A stretch of 64,000 nucleotides of DNA from Nemertoderma westbladi (taxonomy: Eukaryota > Animalia > Xenacoelomorpha): assembly GCA_032718475.1 (NCBI GenBank), contig JAUCBJ010007028.1, positions 1 to 64,000 on the forward strand. Direction: 5' to 3'. Every line of letters begins with the position of its first letter. Position 1 is the first letter of the stretch. The notes under the pieces were generated by a model that ran no database searches, was not told the origin of the DNA, and saw nothing but the letters and a program-made list of their open reading frames with translations. The position numbers and the translations under genes are program-made. Positions 1-53,488 of the stretch are shown here, piece by piece.

Positions 1-54
1 ACGACCCTTTTTAGACTGATTTCATACAGGGGGATCAGTATTGTTACGTTAGGC

Positions 55-4870: not shown

Positions 4871-4899
4871 CCTTGACTCATGTCCGTAACCACATCGGC

Positions 4900-11386: not shown

Positions 11387-11534
11387 GCTTACCCCCCCCC
11401 CCCCCATCTACATTATTATTCCTACCAAATAAATAAATAACTGCTAAGAAAATTGTTTTAATTTCGTAAGAATCGCAGGTATCGTTTTTTTTAAATTGTC
11501 ATCTTGTTGATTTCAATTTGTTTGAAGATCTGAT

Positions 11535-24118: not shown

Positions 24119-24410
24119 TATACAATCTGCGCAGGCTTACACGTCTTCTGCTCAATATTAACTTACAAGTAAATAAAACTGACAGAAATAGGCCTAAGTA
24201 AAATCCCCATAAAAACCAGGCGTCCCCGATTTAATATCAAGACCTACCGGTATATAATTATCAAAATCGAATAATACTGATGTACCTGTACAGTAAGTAA
24301 GTACCGGTTCGGGCAGTTGGGCCTACAGGCCTACAGCAGTACATGTTACCGTTCAACCGGTACTTTCGACTTTATTGCTTACGCCGCAATAAAGAAACTA
24401 TAACTGTTAT

Positions 24411-24777
24411 TGTTCGCGCTTTTAGACCTTTAGCAGTTTAACCCGCTAATTTATATGTCTTTTAGTTTGTAAATCGACTTTAGCCTGTGACAAGTATTGG
24501 ATACACTACATTAGCCGAAGCCAGCCGATGCGCGATCATTCACCCGCTGAATATACCCGGGAGACTGGATTCGGATGCTTTGACCTTATTGCGGTGTAGG
24601 CCTACTGTACTATTCGATTGATCGTTAATATATAATCTCTGACAAATATTATTCACTTTCGGGAAATATTAGCAGTTCCTTTAGGATGTGGCGCTCTAAA
24701 TATGTAAACAGAGTTATGACTTATACTAAACACATAGGGATGGCTTAGGATTTACACATAAGGCGCATTCTTTAGGA
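24411..24777 (-). repeat. ~367-bp module, inverted copy of the distal part of the BEL-2 LTR-like repeats (49350-49713, 51481-51847)
   Basis: tgttcgcgcttttagacctttagcag...aaggcgcattctttagga is the reverse complement of 51481-51847. Confidence 0.9.
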
Positions 24778-34800: not shown

Positions 34801-35960
34801 CTACCTATGAAGTCAGTGTAGGCTGTAATGCCTTTACCTGCATCTGGGGCATAGCATGATAAAAACATAGCAGACTGGTTATTGATTTCGGTGACAATAC
34901 CAACGATGTTATCCCCAGATTCAACTTTTGAATAACTCTTGACCTTGCTCTTAGAGAAGAAAAGAGCGGCGCCACCTGCACCTCTACAACGTTTTCCATT
35001 ACTCATTAAATTGCTTACAATGGATTTGCAGTTAAACCCATCGGCAAACTCGTTTAAAAGCTCCTGGCATTCTACCTGATCGAGCCAGTGCTCCTTTATA
35101 GCAAATATGTCGCATTGGTCTAGTATGTCTCTAACATAGTCCGAGTTCGAAGAGAATCCGTGACAGTTAAATGTACCTACTCTCAACCCATTAAGACTAG
35201 TTGAATTGACAGACATGGTGGGGTTCTCCCTATTTCTAGAAATTAATGATTGTGTATACGTTCCGTAGACGGCGCGCCCTGCACTGTCAATGTTAAACTC
35301 TATGGGTAGTGTTCCCTGGTCTCGAGGTGGGTTTCGGGTTAATAGTTAAACTGCTGCGGTCGGTCCATTTGTTGCTTTGACGTAGGTGCTGAGTCCAGCT
35401 GGAAGAGTTGTCACACTGATTACTAACGCGTTGGTTACTGTCACGATTATGTTGAGACCAGCTTGGAGGGTTGTCATGACATCTGAAAGGGTTGTCACGC
35501 TGATTACTAACACGCTGACTACTGTCACAATTATGTTGAGTCTAGCAAGGAGGGTTCTCAAGCTGATTACTAACACGCAGAGTACTGACACGATCGTGTT
35601 GAGTCCAGCTGGGAAGGTTGTGACGCTGATTACTAACATGCTGATTACTGTCACGGACATGTTGAGGCCAGTTGGTAGGGTTGTCACGCTGATTGCGGCT
35701 GAAAGGGTTGACACGCTGATTACTAACACGCCGACTACTGTCACTATTCTGTTGCGTCCAGATAACAGGATTGTCACGCTGAATATAGGTGGAAGGGTTC
35801 TCACGCTGGTTCCTAACACGCTGACTACTATCACGATAGTGTTGGGTCAAGCTGACAGGGTTGTCACGCTGGTTGCAGCTGGAAGGCTTGTCACGACGCT
35901 GATTGTAGCTGGAGGGGTTGTCACGCTGGTCATTACTATCGCGATCGTGTTGAGTCCATC
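31860..35960 (-). mobile_element. Degenerate APE-RT LINE (RTE-X/Daphne-like), ORF2 plus a repetitive ORF1-like tail
   Basis: LRVGTFNCHG, DIFAIKEHWL, IDHI, SDH (APE); YRLIS, LDISSAFDSV, GLKQGSLLSP, GYADD (RT). Clade and boundaries are approximate. Confidence 0.85.
35388..35960. repeat. ~63-bp degenerate tandem repeat, open on both strands
   Basis: Repeated gagtccagctggaagggttgtcacgctgattactaacacg units. The minus frame reads NQRDNPSSWTQHDRDS. Confidence 0.85.
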
Positions 35961-36551
35961 TGGGAGTCCATCCAAATTCCCTTTGCACAGTACTAAACTG
36001 CCTGTACCCGGTGGAACAGCCCAAGAGAATGTCCCTGTCCTGGACGCCGAGAGAGCAATCCAAGATTTGTCTCCCTTCGTCCCGCGTCTGCCCGCTACTA
36101 TGTTGGCGACTCCCGCTTCGGCGGTCGAGTGGGTAGATGAGGGACGGCAGGAGATGGGTCTCTTGCTCGGACAGCTGAGGGAACAACGGGAATGTTCCTC
36201 CCGGCAGGTCCGAGATTTAGAAGGGACTGTCCACCAGCTCAAGGGAACCATAAGGGAAAGTAGGTTAGAGTTGCAAGAAGTGCAGCAAAGTATCGCGCTA
36301 GAACGCAACAAACTAGTAAATATACAAAAGAGTATACCAACTCCCCCTGTAACCATGTGTCAACCTGTTAGGTCTGAAGTATTTCATGCGCAAGGTGTGG
36401 AGCTTATACACATCTATACTGCTGTGAAGTAGAAACTCCTACAGTAAACCCTATAAAGGGTAATTATAAACCTGTTGATAATGATATTCCCTATAGACCT
36501 GATAATAATCCGAGAAATTTATATACCGATAATTCGATATTAAATAACACG

Positions 36552-38660
36552 ATGGCCCAAGAAAGCTTTACGCGTCAGATGGCTATAACAGAAGCCCGCC
36601 AAGCGGTCAAAGTGGTAGAGATTGTCAAATTCAATGGAGATGAGATGAAATGGTTACCTTTTAATGAATATTATAAAGATAACATACAGAACTCTGTACT
36701 ATCTAACAGAGAGAAACTAAGATTCCTCATCGAATGTTTGGAAGGACCTCCCAAGTTAATGGCGTTAAAGTTTATTGGACATCCAGATGGATTAAGACAA
36801 GTTTGGGATAAATTAAACATCAGGTATGGTAATAGGAATAACATAGCTAAGTATTTGTATGCAAAATTGGTAGCCCCCCGAAAGTTCGTTAGTAGCGGGA
36901 TTATAGAGTTTTTCAATGAGATTCAGGAGGTCTGTAGACAATTGGATTGGCTAGGTAAGTCTCATGAATATGAGAGTTCCATGGTTATTGGAGCCGTAGC
37001 CTCTACTTTACCAAAGGGTGGAGTAGGTACACGCTGGGACAAGAAAGTGTTGTATATGATGGAGCAGCAACGACAAGACCCTACCATGGCTGATATCATG
37101 TCCTTCTTGGATGGAGAAGTAAAATTACAACTCATAAAGCAGTCCAGAGAGAAAACACCGGAAAATAAGGTAAGTGAGAAACCCGTTGCTAGGAGAAAAG
37201 TAACCTCAGTGTGTTATACTGACAATGGCAAAAGCCAAGCTTCTCAAGAAGAGGACAGCGGAAAAGACACTGAAAGATCTTACTATGTTAACAAAACACC
37301 AAAAGACATAAGTAAATACAAGTCTCGAACCAATGATAGGAGAGAACAGGTTGCCAAGACTCCTCCTCAGTCTCCTAACAGAATTCACGGAAGAAAGTCC
37401 GATGGAAGAACGAGAGTGCATAACGTTATCAAAGGTAAAGTGAGTAACATCAAACCAAAATGTGCGCTGTGCGACGGGCCCCACCGTTTGAGTGCGTGTG
37501 CTGAGTTCCTAAAGAAATCCCTGGTAGATAGACGTGAAGTCATGTGGGATAAGCGGTTATGTTATAATTGCCTCAGACAAGGACACCAACGGAGAACCTG
37601 TTACTCCGACATAAGGTGTGCAAAGTGTGGTGCGAAACATCACATCTTGTTACACAGTGAATTCGAACGAAACAGCCCGAGTCAGGTAAGTGAGCCCGAA
37701 TTACATGTCCCATTCAGTGATGTGAATGACACTGACCAAAGTTCTGAGATGGAAGGATTCTATACGGACAAATTCTCCGATGCAAACAAATCTTGTTACC
37801 TAATAAATACCGCAGTGTATCGAGCACTTACGTATGAAAAGGAAACCGACAGTGAGTCCCCCCTAACTACTCTTGATCGACAACCATCTTGGAAAGCACC
37901 AACTTCCAACGTAGGAATCCGAGAATTTCCCGTAGTACAAGTGAGAGTCCACGGTCCTGACAAAAGTTATATAGTGAACGCCCTCCTTGACTCCGGCAGC
38001 ACAGGAACATTCATCAACCAAGAACTAGCCAAAGACATCTTTGCTGGACAACCCAAATTCCGAACTAAGTTAAACATGTCAGGAATTATGCAGGTTTGGA
38101 AATCTACAATAATTGCAGATTATTATGTAGGTGCGTTGTCCACCCCCCAGGATAAATTAGGAGAACAAAGTATAAGGTCAGTAAAAATGGTGGCGATAAA
38201 GAACTTCGCTACTAGCCCAGTAGAACCTTATAACTGGGATGAGGATGAGTGCACCCAGCAGCTTAAGATACCTCGATTCCAAACAGACTATCCTGGAGTG
38301 CAAATACTCATCGGCCAAAACGCGCATGAAGCGCTAGAGACATTGGAGAAACGGCCTGCTCAACCACAGTCACTACAAACCTATGCGGTAAGAACTAGAG
38401 TAGGTTGGTACTTTACTGGCCCTTCCCGTAGAACTCTCCTGGAAAGGTTACCCAAAGAACTGGTCTACCAAGTAAAGGAATGGGACGTGGAGAGCAGTGA
38501 GGTGGACGATCTAACTGAGGGAACACCATACTCCTCAGATAATGACGATATCTACCAACTCCTTGACGAAGAGAATGCAATCGACCTACTTATGGAAAAC
38601 AAAACTTGGCAAAAACCAAGTGAACCTATGTCAACTCGTTCGCCCATCAGGACATATTAA
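36552..38660 (+). CDS. BEL-2 gag (DUF1759-like, three Zn knuckles) and aspartic protease
   Basis: KFNGDEMKW...EKLRFL; CALCDGPHRLSAC, CYNCLRQGHQRRTC, CAKCGAKHHILLH; ALLDSGS. A frameshift near 38620 separates it from pol. Confidence 0.9.
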   Translation: MAQESFTRQMAITEARQAVKVVEIVKFNGDEMKWLPFNEYYKDNIQNSVLSNREKLRFLIECLEGPPKLMALKFIGHPDGLRQVWDKLNIRYGNRNNIAKYLYAKLVAPRKFVSSGIIEFFNEIQEVCRQLDWLGKSHEYESSMVIGAVASTLPKGGVGTRWDKKVLYMMEQQRQDPTMADIMSFLDGEVKLQLIKQSREKTPENKVSEKPVARRKVTSVCYTDNGKSQASQEEDSGKDTERSYYVNKTPKDISKYKSRTNDRREQVAKTPPQSPNRIHGRKSDGRTRVHNVIKGKVSNIKPKCALCDGPHRLSACAEFLKKSLVDRREVMWDKRLCYNCLRQGHQRRTCYSDIRCAKCGAKHHILLHSEFERNSPSQVSEPELHVPFSDVNDTDQSSEMEGFYTDKFSDANKSCYLINTAVYRALTYEKETDSESPLTTLDRQPSWKAPTSNVGIREFPVVQVRVHGPDKSYIVNALLDSGSTGTFINQELAKDIFAGQPKFRTKLNMSGIMQVWKSTIIADYYVGALSTPQDKLGEQSIRSVKMVAIKNFATSPVEPYNWDEDECTQQLKIPRFQTDYPGVQILIGQNAHEALETLEKRPAQPQSLQTYAVRTRVGWYFTGPSRRTLLERLPKELVYQVKEWDVESSEVDDLTEGTPYSSDNDDIYQLLDEENAIDLLMENKTWQKPSEPMSTRSPIRTY

Positions 38661-38904
38661 CTACAACGACGAACTGAATGATGTGATAGATCGCTACAAT
38701 GCGAGGACTCGGGACGAACTCGCCGTATGATTCTTTACTCAAGAGGCTGTAGAGCCCAATTCCTACGATAAGGCCCTATCGGTAGAAGAAGAAAGAGCCA
38801 AGCAGATCCAGGAGACAACTACACGTTTTCTAAAAGATCAAGGTAGATATGAAATCGGCCTACCATTTCGAAAACGAGAACCTAGATTTATAAACAACCG
38901 ACCC

Positions 38905-41181
38905 TTGGCGGAGAAAAGAATCGCTCAATTACATCGACTCCTTATGGCAAATGCTTCAGCTAAAAAAATGTACCAAACTCAGTTGAAGAAATTTATTAAC
39001 AAAGGATATGCGGAGCGAGTACTGGAAGATACACCCATAACTAAGAGAACGTACTATCTAACACATCATTACGTTCCCAAACCCGGTAAACCTCATAAAG
39101 TACGAGTCGTATTTGATGGCTCCGCCCTATACATGGGCCAATCCCTCAATTCCGAGTTGTTACCAGGACCCAACTTACTCCAACCCTTGTTGGGAATACT
39201 TTTAAGATTAAGACAATATTCCATCGCGTTCGCCTCCGATATAGAAGGAATGTTCTTACAAGTCAAGGCGCTGGATAGGGATAGAGACAGCCTAAGATTT
39301 CTGTGGTGGCCTGAAGGAGATCTCAACCAGAAACCGGTGGAGTACTGGATGACCATACAGGCTTTTGGGATCATCTCAAGCCCTTCAAACGCCTGCTCAG
39401 TGGTGCGGACCACTGCTGATGACAACTGGCACGCCTTCTCTAAAGAGGTGATTGACAACATCAAACGGGATATATACATGGACGACAATTTAAATTCCCT
39501 TCCATCAGTAGAAGAAGCCATTGATGTCGCCAAAGGAACGGTAGAGTGCTTGAAAAGAGGTGGATTTCAATTGACTAAATTCACCAGCAACTCCCGTGAG
39601 TTTCTGGAATCAATACCGGTAGAAGACCGAGGAGCGAAAGACCTAGACCTAATAAAAGACGATCTTCCAGAAACCAAGACGCTTGGCTTGAAGTGGGACA
39701 CGAAGAGAAATATCCTGTTTTTTCAGCTAAAACAGCGAGATAATCCAGTTTGGACCAAACGGATTTGTTTAAGTATCCTGAGCACTTATTTCGATCCATT
39801 GGGATTTATCAGCCCAGTTATATTGATTGCTCGGAGTTTAGTACAACAAATGTGGCTCGAAAACCACTCATGGGACGATCCACTTAAGGGAGAACTATTA
39901 AAGAGGTGGATGAAATGGGAAGATTCTCTACCAGCCATCGAGAACTTTATAATTTCCCATTCATATTTTGGTCATGTTCTCCCTACGTATTCCTATCAAC
40001 TCCATGTGTTTGGAGACGCCAGCGATATGGGAATAGGTATAGTAGCATACTTGCGAGTCGAAACTCCTGATGGAATCAAAGTCGCCTTGGTTACCTCTAA
40101 GGCATTGATTAACAACAAGTTGAAGGTTCCTCGGGCGGAGTTAAAAGCGGCTCTTTACGCTACAGCCATCGGCCGGAATGTAACAGAACAGATCGACTAT
40201 CCACTGGAGAAAACTGTTTATTGGACCGACGCTTTACTCGTGTTGGAGTATATAACAAATGAATTCTGTCAGTTTAGCGTCTTTGTTACCAACAGAGTAG
40301 CCATTATTCTTAGCCGCACAAAGATAGATCAATGGAGACATTGCCCTGGTACGATTAATCCAGCCGACATCGCCTCCAGGGGAGCAACTCCACAGGAACT
40401 GATAGATACTCCAGATTGGTTGGGTGGACCCGACTTCCTGAGCAAGGAAGACGATGAATGGCCTCCTCACCTTACTACGGCGGAGATTAGACAAGCCAAG
40501 GGAGCGGAGAAAGTCAAACCTAAAACCCGGGCAAGTAAATTGAAGTTATTTAAACCGGTGATAGATCTGTCGGTACTACACACTTCCGGAGACAACGCTT
40601 TGGATCCACAATCCCACGCCACAAATAAGTCTGTTGTGGAAATCAGAGATAGAGATTGGAAATCTGGAACACCAGACGTCTCGCAAGAACTCTCACCCCT
40701 GCTGCAGAGAGCAATACATCACTATAGTTCCTGGAATCGGCTCTGCAAGGCCGTCACATATTTAAAGCGATGTTTTCATCATCACTACTCCAGGACGAAG
40801 ACCACTAGTGATACCGCTCCATTGACATCTGCACAAGTTCATGTTGTTAAAGATCTTCCCAAATATAAGATATCCGACCGGTTTCTAAAGGAGAAGATCA
40901 GTTACCAGGAGCATGAAGAAACCAATAAGCAGATACTGAGACTCCTGCAATGTTATGAAGATTCCGATAAGTATTTCCTGTTGTTGAGAAATCCACAGAT
41001 GCGCTTAAGGGATCGTTTCTCTAGCACAATGATAGATGGGTTAATACGTGTTGGAGGAAGACTCACTAATGCTCCATTATCCTTTGACACTAAATTTCCC
41101 ATCCTCATTAGAAATATTGAAATACAAATCAAGATGATTGTAGATGTTCACAGTAAACTTTACCACGCTGGTAGAGAATGA
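38905..41181 (+). CDS. BEL-2 reverse transcriptase and Pao RNase H/peptidase A17 (ends at a premature TGA)
   Basis: KVRVVFDGSA, SDIEGMFLQV, YMDD, FDPLG, HVFGDAS, NPADIASRG. Confidence 0.92.
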   Translation: MAEKRIAQLHRLLMANASAKKMYQTQLKKFINKGYAERVLEDTPITKRTYYLTHHYVPKPGKPHKVRVVFDGSALYMGQSLNSELLPGPNLLQPLLGILLRLRQYSIAFASDIEGMFLQVKALDRDRDSLRFLWWPEGDLNQKPVEYWMTIQAFGIISSPSNACSVVRTTADDNWHAFSKEVIDNIKRDIYMDDNLNSLPSVEEAIDVAKGTVECLKRGGFQLTKFTSNSREFLESIPVEDRGAKDLDLIKDDLPETKTLGLKWDTKRNILFFQLKQRDNPVWTKRICLSILSTYFDPLGFISPVILIARSLVQQMWLENHSWDDPLKGELLKRWMKWEDSLPAIENFIISHSYFGHVLPTYSYQLHVFGDASDMGIGIVAYLRVETPDGIKVALVTSKALINNKLKVPRAELKAALYATAIGRNVTEQIDYPLEKTVYWTDALLVLEYITNEFCQFSVFVTNRVAIILSRTKIDQWRHCPGTINPADIASRGATPQELIDTPDWLGGPDFLSKEDDEWPPHLTTAEIRQAKGAEKVKPKTRASKLKLFKPVIDLSVLHTSGDNALDPQSHATNKSVVEIRDRDWKSGTPDVSQELSPLLQRAIHHYSSWNRLCKAVTYLKRCFHHHYSRTKTTSDTAPLTSAQVHVVKDLPKYKISDRFLKEKISYQEHEETNKQILRLLQCYEDSDKYFLLLRNPQMRLRDRFSSTMIDGLIRVGGRLTNAPLSFDTKFPILIRNIEIQIKMIVDVHSKLYHAGRE

Positions 41182-42360
41182 GTTCTTAGCGAAATCCAAA
41201 CTCGCTATTATTTTTATAAACCCCGTAGAGCTCTGAACCAAGTTCTTAGGAACTGCATACCCTGTAGGAAAGCATTCAGTAGGCCTTTAACACAGCGAGA
41301 GGCAGAATTACCTAGGGAACGAGTAAGCTTCTATGAACCACCCTTTACTAATACCGGTGTGGATTTATTTGGCCCTATTGAAGTATATCGTGCTAGAACT
41401 ATAGTCAAGAGATGGTGTGTCATCTTTGTCTGCATGACTTGTAGAGCTATCCATCTCGATATGGTGAACGATCTATCTACCAACAGCTTCGTATTAAGTT
41501 TATGCCGACAGATCGCTCGCTTCGGAACTAGCAACACGATGAGATCGGATAAGGGAACAAACTTCATTGGTGCCAACAACGAAATTCAGGCTTACGTAAA
41601 GGATTGGAACCAAAGACAGGTGGACGATCAGCTAAGGATAACAGCGTCTAGCTGGACCTTCAATGCCGCCAACGCCCCTTGGTGGGGAGGAAGTCGGGAG
41701 AGATTAATTAGAAGTGTAAAGACTGCATTTCACTTTATAGTGCCGTGCCGCGCGTATCTCACCGACAAACTTTTGCGGACGTTAATGGAGGAAATCGCCG
41801 CCTATCTCAACGAGAGACCGCTTATGCCAGTCTCATCGAGTCCCGATTCCCTGGAAGCGCTAACACCCATGCACTTCCTACCGAAGAAACCTGTAGCCAT
41901 GCTCCCACGATCAGAGATCACAGACGGAGACGAATACTGCCGTCAAACTTGGCAACTTATGCAGTTGCTATCCCGTTGTTTTGCTGACCATTTCGAAAAA
42001 CATTATCTGCCCACGCTACAACTTCGAACTAAGTGGTTTGCGCAGCAAGAAAACGTCAGCGCCGGAGACATGGTGCTTATTGTGGATTCAGACCTTCCAC
42101 GTAAGCGGTGGCAGACAGGTCGTATCATCGAGACTCACATCTCGGATGATGGTTTGGTGCGCTCGGTAGAACTCGTCGTCATGCGGCGTAACTTTAAGAA
42201 ACCGGGAATAATCTTCGAGACGCAACAGCTCAACCGCCCAGTTGGTTGTTTATGTTTACTAAAAAGAGACCAAGAACTCTCCGGAAACTATGGAAGGCAA
42301 GATACTCTTCCCACGACCACCTCCCTAATTCCTCAAACATCTAGGGGCTCCCCAACGTGA
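41182..42360 (+). CDS. BEL-2 integrase (in frame with pol after one TGA)
   Basis: CIPC, PFTNTGVDLFGP, SDKGTNF, GGSRERL, LNERPL, YLPTLQLRTKW, DGLVRSV. Confidence 0.9.
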   Translation, partial: VLSEIQTRYYFYKPRRALNQVLRNCIPCRKAFSRPLTQREAELPRERVSFYEPPFTNTGVDLFGPIEVYRARTIVKRWCVIFVCMTCRAIHLDMVNDLSTNSFVLSLCRQIARFGTSNTMRSDKGTNFIGANNEIQAYVKDWNQRQVDDQLRITASSWTFNAANAPWWGGSRERLIRSVKTAFHFIVPCRAYLTDKLLRTLMEEIAAYLNERPLMPVSSSPDSLEALTPMHFLPKKPVAMLPRSEITDGDEYCRQTWQLMQLLSRCFADHFEKHYLPTLQLRTKWFAQQENVSAGDMVLIVDSDLPRKRWQTGRIIETHISDDGLVRSVELVVMRRNFKKPGIIFETQQLNRPVGCLCLLKRDQELSGNYGRQDTLPTTTSLIPQTSRGSPT

Positions 42361-42526
42361 TAGCGTATGGAGTGGGTGTGTGACTATATTATTTTATCTA
42401 TTTTATTATTTTATATATATCTCTATGTATGTATTATTATGTACTTTTATTATAATTGTTTTATTTAATTTTATTTAGTAGAATGTTATTTTAGAGATTA
42501 TTTAGTAGATTAGTGCAATATATTAA

Positions 42527-43374
42527 CCCTATTCCACCTGGGGTTGGGCAGAATCTGCCCAACACTTTTTATTTTTAGAAATTCATGATGATGATTTTTA
42601 TGTATTATTATGAAATTTATTGACTTTTCCTAGAATTTAATTGGCTTTCTGATGGTAACAAAATATTTTTTTCATCATTTATACTTTTTGTGCTATGTTG
42701 TGTTTTTCATATCATAGTCACATTTTTTTATTATAATATATTTATTAGCCTAACTGGTAGAAAAGATAATCCCTGGTTGGATAGTTCCCCTGGTCAACAA
42801 GCTAGAATACAACCAATTACGGTCCAGGACATTCACTTGGCTGGGTTGTAAAGTTAAATTCAAACACGAGATTGTCTACTGCTTGGATTAGTACACATCA
42901 ATCACATTATTTTTTAATAACAAAATACTAAACTGACAGATAAGCAAGCAATAAGTCTACTAGGATAAAACAACAACCACCATTGAAACCAGTATATTCC
43001 TAATGTAATACAGCAGACATAAACAGAGGTGAATAAATCTATTCAATAACAGCACCCCTGCAAGCAAAATTTTCACTTGGGATGACTGGCAGAGTTAGGC
43101 AGACAGTGGTGTTGGGAGGAGTATGTATAGTATTATCTCATCTTTTTACTATAATGGGTTATCTTCATGATAATTAATTTATATGGATATATTATTTAAA
43201 ATTATGAATATATAAAACTCAGAACAGATGCATTATATATTTTTCTATAAACCTGCGAAAATTTGGAAAGTTTTGATAAAATTATCATTACTTTTTAGTG
43301 TATAATAAACTGTTGGGCATATTATGCCCAACCCCAGGTGGAATCTCGGACAAAAGAGCCCAGGTGGAATAGGG
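42527..43374. mobile_element. piggyBac-type non-autonomous element (848 bp)
   Basis: TTAA TSD at 42523-42526 and 43375-43378; perfect 16-bp TIR CCCTATTCCACCTGGG; subterminal inverted repeats. Confidence 0.92.
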
Positions 43375-44680
43375 TTAATGTTTATTACTTAATTACATAT
43401 CTATTATATATTTAGTGTGACGACGAGAAATAATTCTTTTATCTTTCCTTACTGTCCGTATTATATTATAAATGCGAGACTACAGTAAGATGACATGTCC
43501 GTACTTATTAAAGTACAATAAAGCTCCTACTATATTTAAGTATTATTGGTAGGCAGAGTATTAGGAATGCAAAGTTCAGATCCTCGTGTCTCGGCTAAAC
43601 CAAGCTCTGGGTAGACCTTGGAAACGACTTGCCTCTTCACACTGACATTGCTTCGTGCGATATTGCTCTTCTACCTTATATTAAATAATACATATAGTAG
43701 CGTGATGTCCCTTTAACAGTAGCGTAAAACGCAAAATAAACCTGTTAAACCTTTGACCATCTGTAATTCTAGTTGATTAAGATATCGCGGTACCCACCGA
43801 TATACTTGAAAGACAATAATTTAGAATCAGTGGTTAACGTCCCCAGACAAGTTCTGGAATAAAATTGTGTTTATTCTAACATCAAATAATAAAACTTACG
43901 GGAATAAATTTAAATTCATATTTTAATGAATTCAATAAATTGTCATTTTATGCAATTTATAACATTCCCAAAATTCCATTAATTAATAGATCACGAGAGC
44001 GGGGATTTACCCTATTGAGTGTATTAGAGTACGAGAATCTCCAATATATAGTCAATAGCCGACAAAATTCATAAAATCATGTATAAAGAGGATATTGACA
44101 ATCAAAGAATTACTATTAAATAGCATCCCAGATCTGTATGCATTGAGAATTACCCTAATTCTACCGCTAGCTTCCCATAATGTCACCATAGCAACACCCA
44201 TGCTAGAATTAGAAGCAAGTTAAAAAGAACAATAGAAAGCTTGCCCCATTGCATAACATAGGGAATACATAGCACACTGGTAGTATCCAAGGATACATAA
44301 TAATAACGTGGCATTCTGGAAGGCACTGACTAACGGACAAATGGCCTGTATGTGTACAATTGATGACAGTTGTGTGGAATTTGGGCGTTTATAGGTGAAT
44401 GTTACTACTAAAGTGTGTTTACAGTAGCGAGTCGCAATTGTGAAAGTAGCCCTAACTCTACCGAAAGAACCTGAAGTGAATCTAAGCCTTTGGGATGGTC
44501 AGTGGAGTGACTTGTGCCGGTTATCGTTGTCGTGGTGTAACTACACGTTGGCGAAAACACCGCGACGACGGTACATCGGTGCTGAGAATCCCACTGTCCG
44601 GGGGCAGAGAGGGGTAGGCAGCGACGCCCGCTCGCCTAAATATAAACTCATTATAATATTAATAAACTCAGATAGCAGAT

Positions 44681-47600
44681 ATGACGGTGTTGATAGAAGA
44701 TGATCTTGGTATCAGGGAGCGATATACTCTACCTTTACAAGCATTTGTGGATAGCTTGATACGCGGTGAAGCTGATCCAACTACTATGGAGGACGATGGT
44801 CGTTATATCGAACCGCCGATGTCCCAGGAGCAACTTACGCATGAATTGGACTATAGAAAATTCACCGCTCGCTATACGCATCGTAAAGGTATGTATATGG
44901 ACTTCTTAACTACTGGCCATCCTATCAATTTATACGATACGGATGATGTAGACACCGAAAGGGAAATGGTTTTATTTAAATATCATACCCAGCGGAGTCG
45001 TAACGATAAACCGAGAATAGAACACGAGAATTCTATTCGTGATCGACTGGAAAGAGAAAACGTTGAAGAACCGGATAAACGCATCGACTTCCACGATTAT
45101 CTGGAATTCTTGAGAGAAACCTATCTCAATATTGCTAGTCAACACAATCTAGAAACTCGATATCCTCATGGTATACATCATGAGCCTATGGTAGAACTCA
45201 AACGGCTCTATTTCACTATGATGTATCTTACCGCCGATCGTCCACTACCTGTTGTCCCGGATAGCTTCGAACAGATGGAGGAATATTGTAAAACTGGAGA
45301 ACAATCACCCGCGTTTCCTCTACAGGATGTGCGTCTTTGGTATTATTGTGACAAATGCCCTAGACCCAACCAACAAACGGAAAGACATAAACATCCGCGG
45401 AGACATTGCGCTAAACACAGTTTTACACGTTATACTTACGGGAGTTTTGAGCGAAATCTGTTTGAAGTATCACCTACGATCGCTCGTCTCAAACGATCAC
45501 TAAATAAACCCCTGATCAGAGTTCCGGAATACTCGGTCAGGCCTCCTCATTCCCCAGTGAGACCTCAAACTCTTGATCCTAACAATATCAGTGATCCTCC
45601 CGAACTATATTCACTGTTCAAAGATTTAGTGTTACAGATTAAGATTTAGGGAGTTGTGTGGCGGTGCAATTTTGTTGACAAGCTGGCACAGCATTCTTAA
45701 AAATGCAGCTGCAATGCAGCATGCCGATCCTAGTAGTAGTTACTCGGACAATTAATCAGTGGCACTCCGGTAGTGGGTTTGTTAGATATTCGCCCATCCT
45801 ACTTAGCCGGATTGGGACGCGGGCATCTACGAGAGAGAAGAAGCCGCTTTAGCCCAACCCGAAGCTCAAATCCTTATGACGGATCTCTACTCTAAAACCG
45901 TCCGTCATCCCTCAATGGTTCCCCATTTTGGAGACAAACTCTTCGCGACGATATAACCCCAACCGGTTGATATCAACATAAGATCACAAAATCTTATCGC
46001 TGACGCTCCTATGTTACAGCGTCCGCCAATCAAGGCTGCTCGTGTTGACGATATACTCATTGAACCTCCGGACAATCGAGCGGATCTTGTCCGTCGTATG
46101 GTGCACGATGTCAACATACGCGCTAGACCTTTACCGAACTCATTTTATGGGATTAAAGACCACCCTTATTACGTTAATCTGACTCAATATTATATGGTAA
46201 AACCTGAAGACCCGACGCATAATTTAAAGTTTCTACCGCTAATAAATCCTCTCGACATTGTCGAACTCGAACAATTGCAGAAACATCTGGATCAGTTAGT
46301 AAAAGTAAACTCATTCAGAAAACCATATAACGTTTCTAGAATAGAGAAGGATACAAAACCTTCTTATAATCTCGATGGATTTATTAAAACTCGATTAGTC
46401 CATTGGAATCTAGACGTATTATTCGAAGAAGAGAAAATACAAAGATATGGAAATGTGGAGACGTATCCCACTCAGTACCTGAAGTATAGTGATCTCCCTG
46501 ACGCTAGCCAATGCGCCACCTTGTGGCATCCAGTCGGGATGACCCTAGAGAACGCCACCAAAGAGTGGAATGAAACTCTTAATGTCATTGAGATGTATGG
46601 AGTTGTCACCTACGATAACGAAGGTAGCGTTCCGGTCGGAGAATTAGGAACTACGCGCATGATACATATACGAGGATTAGCTGGTTCTACCCACGTGTTT
46701 ACTCGAGCGTGTTCCGACGTGATTGATTATTCTTTTGAGACTCTCACCGAAACACAAAAGAATCTCCGACATGGACAATTCGAACTTGCGCAGCGTTATG
46801 TCATTGACACTGAGCGCAAACCGGCCATGGGTATCGATGGATCGATGTTACCCCAGCCCGTGCTCGAGATGTTGTTCAACGAAAGAATCCTTAAAATTGG
46901 CTCAGCTGTTTATGGAGATCTCCAAAACGACTTTCGGAATATGGAAAATATCCCATATCCTCGTGGATACTCAGCTGATTGCTCCCTGGGCAGAAGGCCG
47001 AGGTTTCTTCCGCACCATGTATGCTAATACGTCCAGCAACATCACAAAAGTACAACGAACTTCCATCGAACATCTTGCCTTTCATTAATACGGATGGAAT
47101 TTCAAAGTCGGAAATCCTATCAACTATCAACAAGTATATGGAGACCATTATTCTCGATTATACTTTGACGGACCATTGACCGCACCTGGCGCCGTGTATA
47201 GCTTCATGAGTGTTCCACTCCGTCCCTCCTTAGCTATATACACGATCTTTGAAAACACCGCACTTTCCGGTTGGCTAGCCGATGTGTGCAGTCGTACTAT
47301 ACGCGCCCATCCATTAATACTTGAGACCAAACTCGCTAAGCTAGATGAACATAATAAATTCATCCGCTTCAAATGTTTCAGGCGTTTTTTAACCCCGTTC
47401 CGTAACGTAGATAGCAAATTCAAAGACCGCGCTTTGACCAAGCTCAGCCTAAGAAACTCAGCTGCAGAGAAGTTAGATAGCGCTGGATTTGCAATTTTTA
47501 AAGATATTTGTATACAGAACTTACACTCCTCTGTTATACAAAGACCTCGAATCCCCACAGGTTATTCTGTCGTGGAAATTCAGACAGTGGGTTCACTTGA

Positions 47601-48714
47601 GGAGACAGCCACACCTACCTCAGCTATGCACTTGGAAGACGAACCAATATGCTTAGAATCCGAGGAGATACAGCCTACTGCGCCCCGGAGCAGCGACAAT
47701 GACTACATCTTAGAATGGTATCAAGGTCCACAGTGTCTCACCGCATACAATTATTGGCATGCCAACTATGTTTCTCGACAACGTTGTCGGTTATGCGCAT
47801 CGAGAGACCATATTATGCCCATGGACACAAACGTACCCTGCTCTTATTTCCACGAACAACCGGCGATGGAAATCTATTGTGCATATTGCAGACTCAATAA
47901 CTTGCACATTTTTGCAGTCTGCCCCCAATTTATGACTCAATGCCACCATTGTCAACTAAAAGGACACGCCAGTTTTGATTGCCCTTTTAATCACGATTTA
48001 GAAAGCGTAGATGAAATGATTACACTACGTTACATTCGAGCTTGGGAAGCGAATGCTGATTTACATTGTGATTCACGCCATCGCTATTACCCTGGACGCG
48101 CTTACGAAGGAGTTTATGTGTTCCATCCTTATCTATTTGCGTCTGTCAAACAGAAATCACGCATACCGAGTTACGAACTAATGAAGCGCGTCGGAGAATG
48201 TATTTCAACCAAATTTGTACGCAAATTTCTTAGGAGCGTTAATCCCAACGATATTAATTCCTATAATTTGATCAATTTTATCCGTCAAGATCCGGAATAT
48301 GGCGATTTATTTATCAACTCGCATCTAGAGTTACAGGAAGTATATCGACGGCCTTACGAATACCGAGCCCGAGAGCGCAAGTTGGAAAGAACCATTTAAC
48401 CAAGGAAGTTTCTCACTGCCTATGGTCCGCCCACGGCTCTCGTTCAGACCACTCGTAGGGGACCCGTAAGAGCTGCTGTCCTGAAACGCGCTCTAAAGGC
48501 CGTTAGACCGCTCTCCCCCAAAGTTGACGTCGACCAACCAGGCACTTTGACTGGCAGATACACCGACCATAATCCTACACCTTCTGATGCAATCATATTG
48601 CACCCTTCACCCAGGAGTTATAGCCCTCCTCGTAAAGTGGCTCACCCCAAAGAGAAAAAGACTCTTGCTAGCTTTAAAAAACTGCGTAAATGCCGTCCAC
48701 GCAAGAAAGACTAA
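44681..48714 (+). pseudogene. Accessory ORF of BEL-2: N-terminal CxxC/CxxH domain, DEDDy 3'-5' exonuclease-like domain, Zn knuckles and basic tail (disrupted)
   Basis: ExoI-like GVVTYDNEG, then LPQPVLEMLFNERILKIGSAVYGD (ExoII). After a +1 frameshift come VDTQL and SIEHLAFH*YGWNFK, then ExoIII-like PLRPSLAIYTIFE. Knuckles CRLC..H..C, CAYC..H..C and CHHCQLKGHASFDC follow. Confidence 0.7.
45647..45740 (+). mobile_element. 5'-truncated 3' end of the same RTE family as 25127-28050
   Basis: agggagttgtg...gcacagcattcttaaaaatgcagctgcaatgcagc.tgccgatcctagtagtagt matches the reverse complement of 25127-25220. Confidence 0.92.
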
Positions 48715-49737
48715 CTGTTTAGAGTATTTTTATATTTTAGAAACTGTGATTTTTTATATTTTATAGAATTAAATCCCAATTTCTGGGAGCGGTGTAAAAG
48801 CTTTTGTGGGATATAACTGGCCCTTTTGCTTCGCAATCCAGTTTCCCCCAATGCGCTCAAATACTCTAAAGAAAAACTACCTAACTCAAATGATGCAAGC
48901 TACCGGCTGATTGGCTGATTTGCTGCTTAGATTATAGAAACGTATAACTGTTATCAAACCGAGTCATATCTTGCATACATAACTCATTGCACCACACGAC
49001 ATAAAAAACTCAAACTAATATTGTCAAACTTTTCACCGCATTATTTTACTGCTATTTACTGTTGGTTATTAATTGTATCAGTTGATGGAATATTGTTATA
49101 CTTGGAGAATATCGATAAATAACCCAAAAATCCCAATCTTCTTGATACACTAAAGGTTAGAGAGACCGGTTACATATAGCAATTGCGACTTATATTATCG
49201 TTGTTTGTAGTGAATCTAATGCTATTTCATAGATACTACATGAGTCAATTGCTGTTCTCTTTATGTATGGTCAAATTCAGTGACTGTCGGCAGATCAGTG
49301 TGCAGTTGTGCGGTACCGGTAGTGTGCAAGAGTGATTGATAACTAAGCATCTCCTAAAGAATGCGCCTTATACGTGAATCATAAGCCGTACCGTTGTGTT
49401 TAGTATAAGTCATAACTCTGTTTACATATTTAGAGCGCCACGTCCTAAAGGAACTGTTAATATTTCCCGAAAATGAATAATACTTGTCAGAGATTATATA
49501 TTAACGATCAATCGAATAATACAGTAGGCTTACACCGCAATAAGGTCTAAGCATCCGAATCCAGTCTCCCGGGTATATCCAGCGGGTGAATGATCGCGCA
49601 TCGGCTGGCTTCGGCTAATGTAGTGCATCAAATACTTGTCATAGGCTAAAGTCGATTTACAAACTAAATGACATATAAATTAGCGGGTTAAACTGCTAAA
49701 GGTCCAAAAGCGCAAGCAATATTGCAGACTCAATAAC

Positions 49738-50550
49738 TTGCAGATTTTTGCAGTCTGCCCCCAATTTATGACTCAATGCCACCATTGTCAACTAAAAGGA
49801 CACGCCAGTTTTGATTGCCTTTTTAATCACGATTTAGAAAGCGTAGATGAAATGATTACACTACGTTACATTCGAGCTTGGGAAGCAAACGCTGATTTAC
49901 ATTGTGATTCACGCCATCGCTATTACCCTGGACGCGCTTACGAAGGAGTTTATGCGTTCCATCCTTATCTATTCGCGTCTGTTGAACAGAAATCACGCAT
50001 ACCGAGTTACGAACTAATGAAGCGCATCGGAGAATGTATTTCAACCAAATTTGTACGCAAATTTCTTAGGAGCGTTAATCCCAACGATATTAATTCCTAT
50101 AATTTGATCAATTTTATCCGTCAAGATCCGGAATATGGCGATTTATTTATCAACTCGCATCCAGAGTTACAGGAAGTATATCGACGGCCTTACGAATACC
50201 GAGCCCGAGAGCGCGAGTTGGAAAGAACCATTAAACCAAGGAAGTTTCTCACTGCCTATGGTCCGCCCACGGCTCTCGTTCAGACCACTCGTAGGGGACC
50301 CGTAAGAGCTGCTGTCCTGAAACGCACTCTAAAGGCCGTTAGACCGCTCTCCCCCGAAGTTGATGTCGACCAACCAGGCACTTCGACCGGCGGATACACC
50401 GACCATAATCCTACACCTTCTGATGCAATCATATTGCACCCTTCACCCAGGAGTTATAGCCCTCCTCTTAAAGTGGCTCGCCCCAAAGAGAAAAAGACTC
50501 TTGCTAGCTTTAAAAAACTGCGTAAACGCCGTCCACGCAAGAAAGACTAA
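49738..50550 (+). CDS. Duplicated C-terminal part of the accessory ORF (CCHC knuckle, basic NLS-like tail), open to the native stop
   Basis: Has AAA where copy 1 has TAA (48397) and ends KKLRKRRPRKKD. Lacks its own 5' end. Confidence 0.7.
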   Translation: MQIFAVCPQFMTQCHHCQLKGHASFDCLFNHDLESVDEMITLRYIRAWEANADLHCDSRHRYYPGRAYEGVYAFHPYLFASVEQKSRIPSYELMKRIGECISTKFVRKFLRSVNPNDINSYNLINFIRQDPEYGDLFINSHPELQEVYRRPYEYRARERELERTIKPRKFLTAYGPPTALVQTTRRGPVRAAVLKRTLKAVRPLSPEVDVDQPGTSTGGYTDHNPTPSDAIILHPSPRSYSPPLKVARPKEKKTLASFKKLRKRRPRKKD

Positions 50551-50628
50551 CTGTTTAGAGTATTTTTATATTTTAGAAACTGTGATTTTTTATATTTTAT
50601 AGAATTAAATCCCATTTTCTGGGAGCGG

Positions 50629-51847
50629 TGTAAAAGCTTTTGTGGGATATAACTGGCCCTTTTGCTTCGTAATCCAGTTTCCCCCAATGCGCTCAAATAC
50701 TCTAAAGAAAAACTCCCTAACTCAAATGATGCAAGCTACCGGCTGATTGGCTGATTTGCTGTACGTAGGGCCTCTTTGTTCTGTTCGATCAACCAACCAG
50801 AGCAACGGTCAACCAAGCAGAGTGATTCATCCGGTGTGTTGGCTAAGGGCTGCAAAAACCCGAATAGTTCGGCATTTAGACATTCGTGGAATCTGTGGAA
50901 TATGGAGCTCTGCCAATGAGAGCTATTTCTCTCTGTATTGAAAGCTACCTGCAACAGCCCACAGAGTTCAGTGTGTGTGTGTGTTGGTTTTCCTATGCCA
51001 GAACATCGGTTGTGGAATCATTCTGTTTTCAGACTTTAGCCAAACATTAGTAGGCTTAGATTATAGAAACGTATAACTGTTATCAAACCGAGTCATATCT
51101 TGCATACATAACTCATTGCACCACACGACATAACAAACTCAAACTAATATTGTCAAACTTTTCACCGCATTATTTTACTGCTATTTACTGTCGGTTATTA
51201 ATTGTATCAGTTGATGGAATATTGTTATACTTGGAGAATATCGATAAATAACCCAGAAATCCAAATCTTCTTGATACACTAAAGGTTAGAGAGACCGGTT
51301 ACATATAGCAATTGCGACTTATATTATTGTGGTTTGTAGTGAATCTAATGCTATTTCATAGATACTACATGAGTCAATTGCTGTTCTCTTTATGTATGGT
51401 CAAATTCAGTGACTGTCGGCAGATCAGTGTGCAGTTGTGCGGTACCGGTAGTGTGCAAGAGTGATTGATAACTAAGCATCTCCTAAAGAATGCGCCTTAT
51501 ACGTGAATCATAAGCCGTACCGTTGTGTTTAGTATAAGTCATGACTCTGTTTACATATTTAGAGCGCCACGTCCTAAAGGAACTGTTAATATTTCCCGAA
51601 AGTGAATAATATTTGTCAGAGATTATATATTAACTATCAATCGAATAATACAGTAGGCTTACACCGCAATAAGGTCTAAGCATCCGAATCCAGTCTCCCG
51701 GGTATATCCAGCGGGTGAATGATCGCGCATCGGCTGGCTTCGGCTAATGTAGTGCATCAAAGACTTGTCATAGGCTAAAGTCGATTTACAAACTAAAAGA
51801 CATATAAATTAGCGGGTTAAACTGCTAAAGGTCTAAAAGCGCGAACA
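50629..51847 (+). repeat. Putative 3' LTR of BEL-2 (partial first copy at 48793-49718)
   Basis: GGGAGCGG directly before TGTAAAAG; ends ...GCGAACA before unrelated LINE sequence. The right boundary may be a truncation. Confidence 0.6.
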
Positions 51848-52548
51848 CCATGTTTTCCTCATGTTCGATTTATTTTCTTCAACTGATTGACATAGAAATT
51901 TTTTTCAGCTTCCCTGTATAATTTTGTGCATATGTTTCTGTATGTTTTATATTTATTTAGATTCTCATCCGTGGGTTTTGAGATATACCGAGCATACAGC
52001 TTATTTTTTTTTATAGAACATTTTATTAAAGAATGAGTTATCCACAGACGATGCGAGGTGTATTTCTTTGTTTGCATTTTTTTTTTTGGTAGATGATTTT
52101 CACATATGTTTTCAAATTTATTATAGAAATTTTTAAATTTGTCCTTGTCTTCTGCATCCCAGTATGACCAAGATTTATTTTCATTAATCTCGCCTAAAAA
52201 TTCATTGGCGTTAAATTTTGAGTAGTCAAAAACGTATTTAACTTCAGGCTCACGGAAATAAGTACTAAATTCAGAAAATATTATGAAAGTTGGGAAATCG
52301 TCCCCAGAACCAATTTTTGAAAGGAAAACACCTGAATTACAAACGGCATCAGTAATATTATGAAAAATATGATCTATGATCGATTTTGAGAATTCGGTTA
52401 CCCTAGTTGGTACATCAATTATTTGTGAGAAACCATGAGACGTTATGGTATTTAAATAATCAGCTGATTTGGAAGATATTCTAATTAGATCTATGTTATA
52501 ATCTCCAGTTATAATTGTATCATAATTTTTATTTGAAAGTATTTCCAG
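51848..52548 (-). mobile_element. Crack/Daphne-like LINE ORF2 fragment (end of APE plus linker)
   Basis: IITGDYNIDL, PTRVT...IDHIF, WITHSL...KNKLY...YKTYRN. Confidence 0.85.
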
Positions 52549-53488
52549 TTGCCAATAGACCACACGTGGTATTACCATAGAAACGAGGCGCCACCATTGG
52601 CAATCCGAGAGAACACGACTGCAGGGGAAATGATGACAGATATCTACCGACACTCTGGCAACAATAATGTTCTGGGACTTTCGCAAAGATATGACGCTTC
52701 TACCTACAGAATACCGCCGGATTTCCTAAACAAATCAAGGTGAAAATATAAAACTGGAAACCCTTTTTGTTTCCACGACAACCAACACCAGACGCGCGAC
52801 TACGGGGTTTATTTCAGCGGGAAGTTTTGGAAGTTTAAATCCTACGGAGATAAGCGGCAGCATCTGTCTGCGAACCACATCGAGTGGGTGAGTGACACAG
52901 CTGGGCGAGGTACCCGGCCCTGCACGTCGGTTTACCGGAGGAGTTTCAACCGAGTCTCGTCTGTAATCCTGGATACTACTGCGGGGATATTGCTTGATAT
53001 CCCTCCTGTATTCCGGGCCGCCACCTCGGAATCATTCCGACCTCACTCCAGCTCCCCCCGTGTCTACCCGACCCCCGTAGTCAGGGTGACTGATTGCTCG
53101 GAATATATCCGGGTTGGTATGACAGCCCTTGATTCCGGTTCATTTAGGACTCCTCTTCGCTCCCTCGCTTTGGCACAGGAACCGTTCCAGAAACCCAATA
53201 ACTGGCGATATTCAAACAGAGGCATTAAAATATAATAGGATTTATTTGTATATTATTAGGTAATAATAAAGAATTTTAATTAACAATTAATTTGTTAAAT
53301 TATATCAGCTGATTTTGAAAAGTCCAAATTTTGCTCTCGGAACTCCTCCGACGTTCTTAAAATGTTTCTATAAAATATATTAGGTAATATTAGGCAGACA
53401 ACTGATACGGATGTTGAAATATGTAAGGCAACACTAGAGTTAAGGTGCACCTTAGCTAAGGTTGATTTATATGCAACCGGCTCCTCCT

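What the first reader, a model, noticed from the sequence alone, without database searches (positions are those of the whole stretch)
44681..48714. BEL/Pao retrotransposon carrying a DEDDy 3'-5' exonuclease / Zn-knuckle protein in the env position
Seen: between the integrase stop (42360) and a PPT+TG LTR-like start (48793) lie ORFs 44681-45649, 46011-47027 and 47176-48399 on the pol strand. A +1 frameshift near 46955 plus read-through of TAA 47086 joins the last two in frame. The result is GVVTYDNEG (ExoI DxE), LPQPVLEMLFNERILKIGSAVYGD (ExoII), VDTQL, SIEHLAFHxYGWNFK and PLRPSLAIYTIFE (ExoIII, with E in place of the usual D), then three Cys/His clusters and a basic tail. Established: this motif order characterises WRN/EXD/Mut-7/RNase D DEDDy exonucleases; BEL/Pao elements normally have only gag-pol, sometimes env. 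From memory, DEDDy extra ORFs have been reported in bdelloid rotifer retroelements, so novelty for this BEL lineage needs checking. Inference: an ancestral protein of ~1300 aa that might trim or proofread cDNA, or act on host small RNAs.
Basis: partly seen in the sequence, partly recalled or inferred. Interest (0 to 1): 0.85.

Follow-up and report, generated by a model that had tools for sequence, protein, structure and literature searches.

The report
BEL/Pao retrotransposon with exonuclease-like third gene
A likely many-copy BEL/Pao jumping-gene family in an animal genome carries, behind its polymerase gene, a third long gene that appears to be kept by selection and likely encodes an RNA-binding protein made of a worn RNase D-like domain and three zinc knuckles, an arrangement I found described only for a different retrotransposon group in bdelloid rotifers.

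Summary
The anatomy is real. A dead BEL/Pao copy (gag-pol 36378-42360, Pfam markers met) runs through a non-coding spacer into a third gene (44681-48714) and a 926-nt TG...CA LTR. Public runs cover the whole unit far above flank depth. The frameshift and stops are lesions of this copy, not recoding, so the family probably encodes one protein of about 1,300 aa or more. Among displayed sites, 13 of 13 that vary between copies fall on third codon positions. An RNase D-like domain is likely: the Exo II block and the block behind it match at RNase D spacing, and the only relative found (P0001) has both the knuckle module and an exonuclease-like N-terminus. But no HMM reaches significance, folding failed, and Exo III has no Asp in either possible register, so 'active DEDDy enzyme' is not shown. 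Best reading: an accessory RNA-end-binding protein with weak or no catalysis, likely acting in trans against RNA silencing. DEDDy third genes are published for bdelloid Juno/Vesta elements; I found none described for BEL/Pao. New variant of a known kind; interest 0.55.

The parts
35940..38660 (+). BEL/Pao gag and protease, 5'-truncated and frameshifted (frames 35386-36432 and 36378-38660); the element's 5' LTR, primer-binding site and leader are missing, a LINE remnant abuts
   Evidence: Pfam DUF1759 E 2e-11; two CCHC knuckles and protease motif; depth rises from about 200 to above 1e5 in the bin 35851-36467 and low-copy flank contigs end at 35941-35966
38731..42360 (+). pol: reverse transcriptase, RNase H, integrase; interrupted by a stop at 41179-41181
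   Evidence: Peptidase_A17 E 7e-35, DUF5641 E 6e-20; RT, RNase H and integrase motifs; best 120 relatives are BEL/Pao polyproteins at 38-43% identity
42361..44680 (+). non-coding spacer between pol and the third gene (37% GC in 43379-44665), with a G-rich tract and TG right behind the pol stop and a TATA-like word and two AG dinucleotides just before ATG 44681
   Evidence: sequence; stops in all three frames; frequent 1-nt indels among copies; GC
42527..43374 (.). MITE with terminal inverted repeats between two TTAA (piggyBac-type, label recalled); a later insertion, not part of the family
   Evidence: inverted arms, ends; depth falls about 100-fold and contigs of X1-X4 join across it
44681..45635 (+). 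third gene, N-terminal part; no family; one Cys/His cluster at 45347
   Evidence: third-position bias among copies
45636..45747 (+). 112-nt insertion, mostly the 3' tail of a LINE-like repeat; breaks the third gene in this copy
   Evidence: 93% match of 45647-45740 to 25221-25130; contigs of X2, X3, X4 and X5 join 45635 to 45748
45748..46559 (+). third gene, middle part; broken near 45829 (other copies hold more sequence there) and by a stop at 45954
   Evidence: joints at 45828-45831; record 6 of X3 matches only from 45829
46560..47300 (+). RNase D/DEDD-like domain: candidate Exo I Asp 46614 and Glu 46620; Exo II Asp 46917; following block at 46957; Exo III either Tyr 47197/Ser 47209 or Tyr 47239/Glu 47251; broken by an indel at 46960 and a stop at 47086
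   Evidence: block scan, 16-sequence profile, Atlas lead; breaks private to this copy
47785..48130 (+). three CCHC-type zinc knuckles and a conserved stretch behind them, shared with P0001
   Evidence: zf-CCHC weak; P0001 E 2.9e-5 among 1.84 billion proteins, 27% over 184 aa
48131..48714 (+). C-terminal part and basic tail of the third gene; stop at 48397 is absent from the window's own duplicate
   Evidence: frame 49684-50550 reads through the same place; K+R 24%
48785..48792 (+). short G-rich polypurine-tract candidate
   Evidence: same in the duplicate before 50629
48793..49713 (+). 3' LTR, first copy (926 nt when whole; last five bases lost at the duplication joint)
   Evidence: starts TG; 98% to the second copy
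49719..51847 (+). tandem duplicate of the knuckles, tail and LTR; second LTR 50629-51847 with a 293-nt insert at 50761-51053, ends CA
   Evidence: 97.7-98.4%, alignment; depth returns to flank level after 51847
24408..24777 (-). separate fragment of the same LTR, ending at the same CA
   Evidence: 94% over 367-370 nt

Best explanation
This is a dead copy of a BEL/Pao retrotransposon family whose third gene, in the place where some relatives carry env, likely encodes one protein of about 1,300 aa or more that is predicted to bind single-stranded RNA with three zinc knuckles and to hold RNA 3' ends in a worn RNase D-like pocket with weak or no cutting activity, likely acting in trans to shield the element's transcripts from host small-RNA silencing. 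Shown: BEL/Pao gag-pol, spacer, third gene and LTR in one row; breaks private to this copy; third-position bias; no transmembrane stretch. Inferred: one protein; RNase D-like fold (about 0.8); expression from its own spliced or internally started RNA; RNA rather than DNA substrate; loss of most catalysis; the anti-silencing role (by analogy only).
For: Unit: cover is continuous in 30 of 30 bins for X1-X3 and, outside the MITE, about 700 to 4,800 times flank depth (X1, X3; summed contig depth, not a copy number); contigs join across the MITE; the sequence behind 48793 occurs three times in the window with one common CA end, that behind 42378 only once. Selection: 13 of 13 displayed sites that vary among copies are third positions (p 6e-7) against 8 of 21 sites private to this copy (p 0.4); 21 displayed contig pieces in the gene hold 981 substitutions but 5 gap letters in 7,325 nt. 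Domain; Atlas puts 25 of 30 hits in the PF01612 set for both the window frame (0.90, weak) and the N-terminus of P0001 (0.93, 178 features), a protein found through its knuckles alone. Weak catalysis: no Asp at Exo III in either register; P0001 has Lys at the Exo I Glu yet keeps the module. Precedents: T. brucei RNase D joins an Exo domain to CCHC fingers that bind single-stranded RNA, and loss of its fourth Asp lowers activity (PMC7797062); Exd1 and Exu bind RNA through inactive exonuclease domains; Maelstrom and EXD1 act in piRNA biogenesis (PMC5408684). In trans: contigs join 45049 to 47634 (X4, X5) and 46441 to 48535 (X4), so copies without the domain exist. Not env: highest 19-residue hydropathy 1.1.
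Against: No Pfam, NCBIfam or PDB-sequence hit for the domain; best PHROG hit E 0.33; profile-profile scores are reached by 3 of 60, 16 of 60 and 3 of 60 shuffles; both structure predictions failed (pLDDT 31 and 33); BLAST does not link the window's domain to the N-terminus of P0001. Exo I and Exo II keep their acids, and Glu could stand in for Asp, so the enzyme may be active. Only this broken copy was read at the Exo III codons; 1,235 difference rows were not displayed. No contig spans pol to the third gene. Nothing here tests silencing, expression or RNA binding. The 0.98 cut was chosen after seeing the table.
Confidence: 0.4

Rival explanations
1. The third gene encodes an active 3'-5' exoribonuclease of the RNase D type, with Glu as fourth acid, that the knuckles feed with single-stranded RNA as in T. 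brucei RNase D; it would trim or destroy small RNAs, tRNA primers or element RNA ends.
Against: That register scores -2.8 against 31-70 and lies 91 codons behind the post-Exo II block against 48-56; by eye the upstream register, with Ser, fits the RNase D helix and its tail better (a gapped test between the two remains open); the relative P0001 lacks the Exo I Glu.
Confidence: 0.27
2. The gene is a real, selected accessory gene but the exonuclease likeness is chance; it has another fold and another job, for example a nucleic-acid chaperone built around the knuckles.
For: All HMM, profile-profile and fold searches are blank or marginal; the Atlas recognition value of the window frame, 2059, is under the tool's 2300 mark; motif spacings need insertions of about 30-45 residues twice.
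Against: Two blocks at the right spacing; an independently found relative with an exonuclease-like N-terminus before the same knuckle module.
Confidence: 0.15
3. The protein proofreads or trims cDNA for the reverse transcriptase inside the particle.
For: The DEDDy group includes DNA proofreading domains and WRN; knuckles also bind single-stranded DNA (established knowledge).
Against: The gene is apart from gag-pol behind a non-coding spacer, so nothing places it in the particle; the fourth acid is not Asp; copies lacking it spread; exonuclease plus CCHC array is an RNA enzyme in its one solved case.
Confidence: 0.08
4. The gag-pol family ends in an LTR near 42378 and the third gene with the 48793 repeat belongs to another element lying next to it.
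For: A G-rich tract and TG follow the pol stop (8 purines of 12 nt); the 5' LTR is missing so the pair cannot be matched; depth over the exonuclease and knuckle part is about a third of that over gag-pol; the displayed loose ends (18 of 778) show a pile-up at neither candidate LTR start.
Against: No dip or peak in depth between pol and the gene apart from the MITE; spacer depth is 1.1-1.3 times gag-pol, not double; no second copy of the spacer in the window; depth drops to flank level only after 51847; lower depth fits deletion derivatives.
Confidence: 0.07

Closest known systems
DEDDy ORF3 of bdelloid rotifer LTR retrotransposons Juno and Vesta, and of Athena/Terminon elements (Rodriguez, Kenefick, Arkhipova 2017, PMC5408684; main text read, figures not visible)
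   Same: RNase D-like gene behind pol in place of env; altered acidic tetrad; no transmembrane stretch; function untested there too.
   Different: Host element here is BEL/Pao (Juno and Vesta are Ty3/gypsy-type, recalled); their motif is given as DEED, here Exo II keeps Asp and Exo III is changed; here the domain sits in a protein of about 1,300 aa with three knuckles; their ORF3 variation within the genome (measured for env and GDSL types) looked neutral, here third-position bias is seen. Homology to their ORF3 was not tested.
Belpaoviridae / BEL/Pao retrotransposons (ICTV profile PMC8742986, whole text; de la Chaux and Wagner 2011, PMC3118150, passages and one supplement row)
   Same: gag, then protease-RT-RNase H-integrase with the Pao markers; LTR of 0.2-1.2 kb; purine tract before the 3' LTR; optional third gene.
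   Different: The third genes described are env-like (roo F-type, Chuviridae-like glycoproteins; PMC13524379 passages). This element is at least 12.8 kb without its 5' LTR against 4.2-10 kb in the profile; nearest pol relatives are only 38-43% identical.
Trypanosoma brucei RNase D, TbRND (PMC7797062, passages; PDB 7C42 appears)
   Same: RNase D-type domain followed by an array of CCHC fingers.
   Different: TbRND is a cellular, active enzyme with four fingers and a full DEDD set; no sequence link to it was shown here.
Pseudo-exonucleases Exd1, Exuperantia, and Egalitarian (bioRxiv 10.1101/2025.08.03.668247, passages)
   Same: DEDD fold used to bind RNA without need of catalysis.
   Different: Host proteins with other partner domains; no knuckle array; analogy only.
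P0001, unnamed 633-aa protein
   Same: Triple-knuckle module with its conserved tail (two copies); exonuclease-like N-terminal domain.
   Different: Half the size; lacks the Exo I Glu; single record on a 3,685-nt contig, genomic context unknown.

Membership tests
BEL/Pao (Belpaoviridae) | gag with capsid-type domain and Cys/His knuckles | tested here: met
   DUF1759 44.6 bits over cut-off 25.4; two knuckles by pattern
BEL/Pao (Belpaoviridae) | pol order protease-RT-RNase H-integrase with BEL/Pao-specific sequence | tested here: met
   Peptidase_A17 and DUF5641 over cut-off; best 120 of 1,408 relatives carry PF05380; colinear tblastn
BEL/Pao (Belpaoviridae) | LTR of 0.2-1.2 kb, TG...CA | tested here: met
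   926 nt, 3' side only; three copies share the CA end
BEL/Pao (Belpaoviridae) | polypurine tract of about 10 nt before the 3' LTR | tested here: inconclusive
   7 purines of 12 nt, G-rich in the last 8
BEL/Pao (Belpaoviridae) | paired LTRs, tRNA primer-binding site, target-site duplication | not testable with these tools
   5' end of this copy is missing; no genome is held
DEDDy 3'-5' exonuclease (RNase D/WRN group, PF01612) | RNase H-like fold | tested here: inconclusive
   models at pLDDT 31 and 33; fold search uninformative; Atlas leads only
DEDDy 3'-5' exonuclease (RNase D/WRN group, PF01612) | Exo I Asp-x-Glu | tested here: inconclusive
   Asp 46614 and Glu 46620 are there, but the site is not among the four best windows and is 101 codons from Exo II against 56-69
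DEDDy 3'-5' exonuclease (RNase D/WRN group, PF01612) | Exo II Asp in its sequence context | tested here: met
   best of 1,916 windows, p 1.8e-5; following block at RNase D spacing
DEDDy 3'-5' exonuclease (RNase D/WRN group, PF01612) | Exo III Tyr-x3-Asp | tested here: not met
   Ser 47209 or Glu 47251 in this copy; both registers score near background. Hence filed as DEDDy-like, not as a member
DEDDy 3'-5' exonuclease (RNase D/WRN group, PF01612) | score over the family HMM cut-off | tested here: inconclusive
   no PF01612 hit for the pieces, the X read-through or P0001; filters drop weak matches
DEDDy 3'-5' exonuclease (RNase D/WRN group, PF01612) | two-metal 3'-5' nuclease activity | not testable with these tools
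   needs an assay
Bdelloid Juno/Vesta/Terminon DEDDy ORF3 pool | sequence kinship with those ORFs | not tested
   their sequences were not in hand; the fifth Atlas row is an unnamed, mostly rotifer cluster at 0.87, a lead only
Bdelloid Juno/Vesta/Terminon DEDDy ORF3 pool | DEED variant of the tetrad | tested here: not met
   third acid is Asp 46917 here (motif as worded)
env-like third genes of BEL/Pao | transmembrane anchor or fusion glycoprotein likeness | tested here: not met
   highest 19-residue hydropathy 1.1 in five pieces; no glycoprotein family hit

The most novel reading that the evidence does not exclude
A very successful BEL/Pao lineage has fixed a large RNase D-plus-zinc-knuckle protein as its own suppressor of piRNA silencing, an enzyme or decoy that captures small-RNA 3' ends. 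Exonuclease third genes would then be a repeated, cross-family anti-silencing device of animal LTR retrotransposons, drawn from a shared mobile gene pool that includes P0001-like proteins.
Probability: 0.25. Interest if true: 0.85.

Novelty: new variant of a known kind. Interest (0 to 1): 0.55.

Why it matters
Transposon-encoded counter-measures against animal small-RNA defence are poorly known, and the job of the bdelloid exonuclease ORF3 has stayed untested since 2017. A many-copy family, present under two organism labels, in which the gene shows selection gives population-scale material for that question. It also widens the third-gene repertoire of BEL/Pao beyond env and supplies a second, mobile example of the exonuclease-plus-CCHC architecture called very unusual in the TbRND paper. 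If the domain is not an exonuclease relative, what remains is a long selected orphan gene in a BEL/Pao family, of modest interest.

Tried and rejected
No genome is held for the window. Homologue search with frame 45957-47024 among longer proteins: none of 1,814 candidates. P0001 has no other relative among 7,996 scored candidates and is a cluster of one. Metagenome scan with the same frame and viral scan with pol: no relative. Phage tblastn: none. A read-through with X at two breaks hit nothing in Pfam and nothing relevant among PDB sequences. NCBIfam none, PHROGs E 0.33 at best. None of the 120 BEL/Pao polyproteins matches a piece of the third gene at E 0.01. Single-sequence folds failed and the fold search of the first gave Z at most 3.2: no information either way. 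hhalign against 16 RNase D/Pol I domains was not significant. A gapped comparison of the two Exo III registers was not completed, so the register is open. The tandem copies differ by 6 synonymous and 15 non-synonymous codons, as expected of decay after duplication, and say nothing on selection in the family. No RNA holder is listed; X5 is only guessed to be RNA and is not used as evidence of expression. No Rfam match in 35000-53000. Rejected: programmed frameshift or stop read-through (other copies lack these breaks); env (no hydrophobic stretch). Literature searches that found no BEL/Pao exonuclease gene; the library lacks most subscription papers and Repbase entries, where such a family could already be noted.
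Full report
What is there. The window holds no N and no genome is on file for it. From about 35,940 a BEL/Pao element runs on the + strand: gag and protease (DUF1759, E 2e-11), then RT, RNase H and integrase (Peptidase_A17 E 7e-35, DUF5641 E 6e-20) ending at 42360. The best 120 of 1,408 relatives of the RT region are BEL/Pao polyproteins at 38-43% identity; the named ones come from fish, echinoderms, cnidarians and a mussel, so no close family is on record. The copy is dead: gag and pol are split by frame changes and a stop, and the 5' LTR and leader are gone, with a LINE remnant in their place. Behind pol lie a non-coding spacer with an 848-nt TTAA-flanked MITE, then open frames 44666-45649, 45957-47027, 46723-47088, 47089-48399 and 48400-48714, then a G-rich tract and TG at 48793. 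The last 1.8 kb are tandemly duplicated at 97-98%, which gives a second LTR ending CA at 51847; a third, inverted fragment at 24777-24408 ends at the same base. The LTR is 926 nt.

Does the third gene belong to this element? Five of seven listed runs, from four studies and two organism labels, hold part of it. Laid on 34000-52500, contigs of X1-X3 cover 30 of 30 bins; summed depth is about 100-1,300 in the flanks and 1.3e5-1.3e6 from gag to 51847, apart from the MITE and the LTR insert. As ratios to flank this is 3,748 and 1,824 for gag-pol, 4,841 and 2,038 for the spacer and 5' part of the gene, 1,319 and 703 for the exonuclease and knuckle part (X1, X3). The tool warns that this is no copy number; I take it only as many copies. 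Contigs join across the MITE in X1-X4, and at 227-nt resolution there is no other dip between pol and the gene. Against: no single contig spans pol to the gene, a G-rich tract plus TG also follows the pol stop, and the few loose ends displayed mark neither candidate LTR start. I put the chance of two separate elements at about 0.07.

One gene, broken here. Other copies join 45635 to 45748 (the 112-nt piece between is a LINE tail, 93% like 25221-25130), hold more sequence near 45829, have no stop at 45954 or 47086 (all depth in the four runs), and differ by an indel at 46960. The stop at 48397 is absent from the window's own duplicate. Of the 40 difference rows displayed (1,235 more were not shown), 34 lie in the gene. 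The 13 that vary among copies in X3 are all third positions (p 6e-7), whereas the 21 private to this copy are spread (8 third, p 0.4); the cut between the groups was set after viewing, and only codon position, not synonymy, was scored. The 21 displayed contig pieces in the gene carry 981 substitutions and 5 gap letters in 7,325 nt, four of them in pieces spanning this copy's own indel; the two spacer pieces carry 44 substitutions and 4 gap letters. The gene therefore appears to be under coding constraint. Derivatives lacking the middle of the gene (45049 to 47634 in X4 and X5; 46441 to 48535 in X4) or lacking RT (38551 to 40325 in X1-X4) also exist.

Is it an exonuclease? No library HMM says so, PDB sequences do not, and both folds failed. 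Three weaker lines agree. First, against 16 RNase D and Pol I domains fetched for the purpose, the Exo II block scores best at 46860 (p 1.8e-5 per window, 1,916 windows) and the block that follows it best at 46957 (p 7e-5, 2,850 windows), 49 nt apart across the frame break, against 16-17 codons in all 16 references (joint about 2e-5, for the two best of four blocks). Second, the Atlas returns PF01612-bearing clusters for 25 of 30 hits, at 0.90 with 128 shared features, which by the tool's own marks is weak. Third, the one relative of the C-terminal frame among 1.84 billion proteins, P0001, was found through its knuckle module (E 2.9e-5; 27% over 184 aa) and independently has an N-terminal domain that the Atlas places beside PF01612 clusters (0.93, 178 features; the family is on 11% of that cluster's members). 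hhalign was not significant (3, 16 and 3 of 60 shuffles as good). I put an RNase D-like fold at about 0.8. The active site is another matter. Asp 46614, Glu 46620 and Asp 46917 are present, though the Exo I site scores poorly and needs a long insertion. They score -2.8 and -3.8 against 31-70 for the references. Neither has Asp. P0001 has Lys at the Exo I Glu. So I call the domain DEDDy-like, not a member.

How it most likely works. The gene lies apart from gag-pol behind a spacer with a TATA-like word and AG dinucleotides just before its ATG, so it would be made from its own RNA, as bdelloid ORF3s typically are; not tested. It has no transmembrane stretch, so it is no env. Exonuclease plus CCHC array is the build of T. 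brucei RNase D, where the fingers bind single-stranded RNA and the fourth-Asp mutant is much weakened (PMC7797062, passages). Exd1 and Exu bind RNA through dead exonuclease domains (bioRxiv 2025.08.03.668247, passages). I therefore commit to an RNA-end-binding accessory factor with little or no catalysis, acting in trans, most plausibly against small-RNA silencing (0.4). An active RNase (0.27), a non-exonuclease protein (0.15), a cDNA proofreader (0.08) and a separate element (0.07) follow. The anti-silencing step rests on analogy alone.

Novelty. RNase D-like third genes are published for bdelloid Juno and Vesta elements and Terminons (PMC5408684, parts 1-3 of 5 read; PMC6431247, passages; PMC6338049, part 1 of 4). 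For BEL/Pao the ICTV profile (whole text), de la Chaux and Wagner (passages, one supplement row) and a 2026 eLife survey (passages) give only env-like third genes. Seven searches found no BEL/Pao exonuclease gene, but Repbase and most subscription papers were out of reach. Two unchecked notes of this scan report Rrp6-like third genes in LTR elements of another invertebrate genome; I did not test them, and they suggest the theme is recurrent rather than unique. Verdict: a new variant of a known kind, well supported as a selected third gene of a BEL/Pao family, moderately as exonuclease-derived, unproven as an enzyme. Interest 0.55.

Noticed in passing
window 38-9972: A second, unrelated BEL/Pao remnant on the minus strand (tblastn 1840-6180; gag-like frame 7408-8415) lies between inverted, not direct, repeats of about 530 nt (38-572 and 9440-9972, 83-94%). 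It may be a BEL/Pao nested in a DNA transposon, or something odder.
   Followed up: partly
window 61411-63988: A third BEL/Pao pol remnant on the minus strand.
   Followed up: no
window 38551-40325: Contigs in X1-X4 join across this stretch: an abundant derivative of the family lacking most of RT.
   Followed up: no
window 11470-13147: Minus-strand frame 12257-13147 reads like the C-terminal helicase part of a SNF2-type remodeller (label by eye and recall) running into a 27-nt tandem array.
   Followed up: no
window 18528-20813: Uninterrupted 761-aa minus-strand frame that looks like a DNA-transposon transposase by eye; no Pfam hit at E 0.01.
   Followed up: partly
window 32189-35900: LINE remnant on the minus strand (RVT_1) with a tandem-repeat end abutting the truncated gag of the element.
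   Followed up: partly
window 53489-54752: Fold-back repeat: inverted arrays of units of about 196 nt with 32-nt terminal arms.
   Followed up: no
window 50761-51053: 293-nt insert in the second LTR copy, of lower depth than the LTR; origin not examined.
   Followed up: no
P0001: Unnamed 633-aa protein with an exonuclease-like N-terminus and two copies of the triple-knuckle module; a singleton on a 3.7-kb contig that may mark a wider mobile family.
   Followed up: partly
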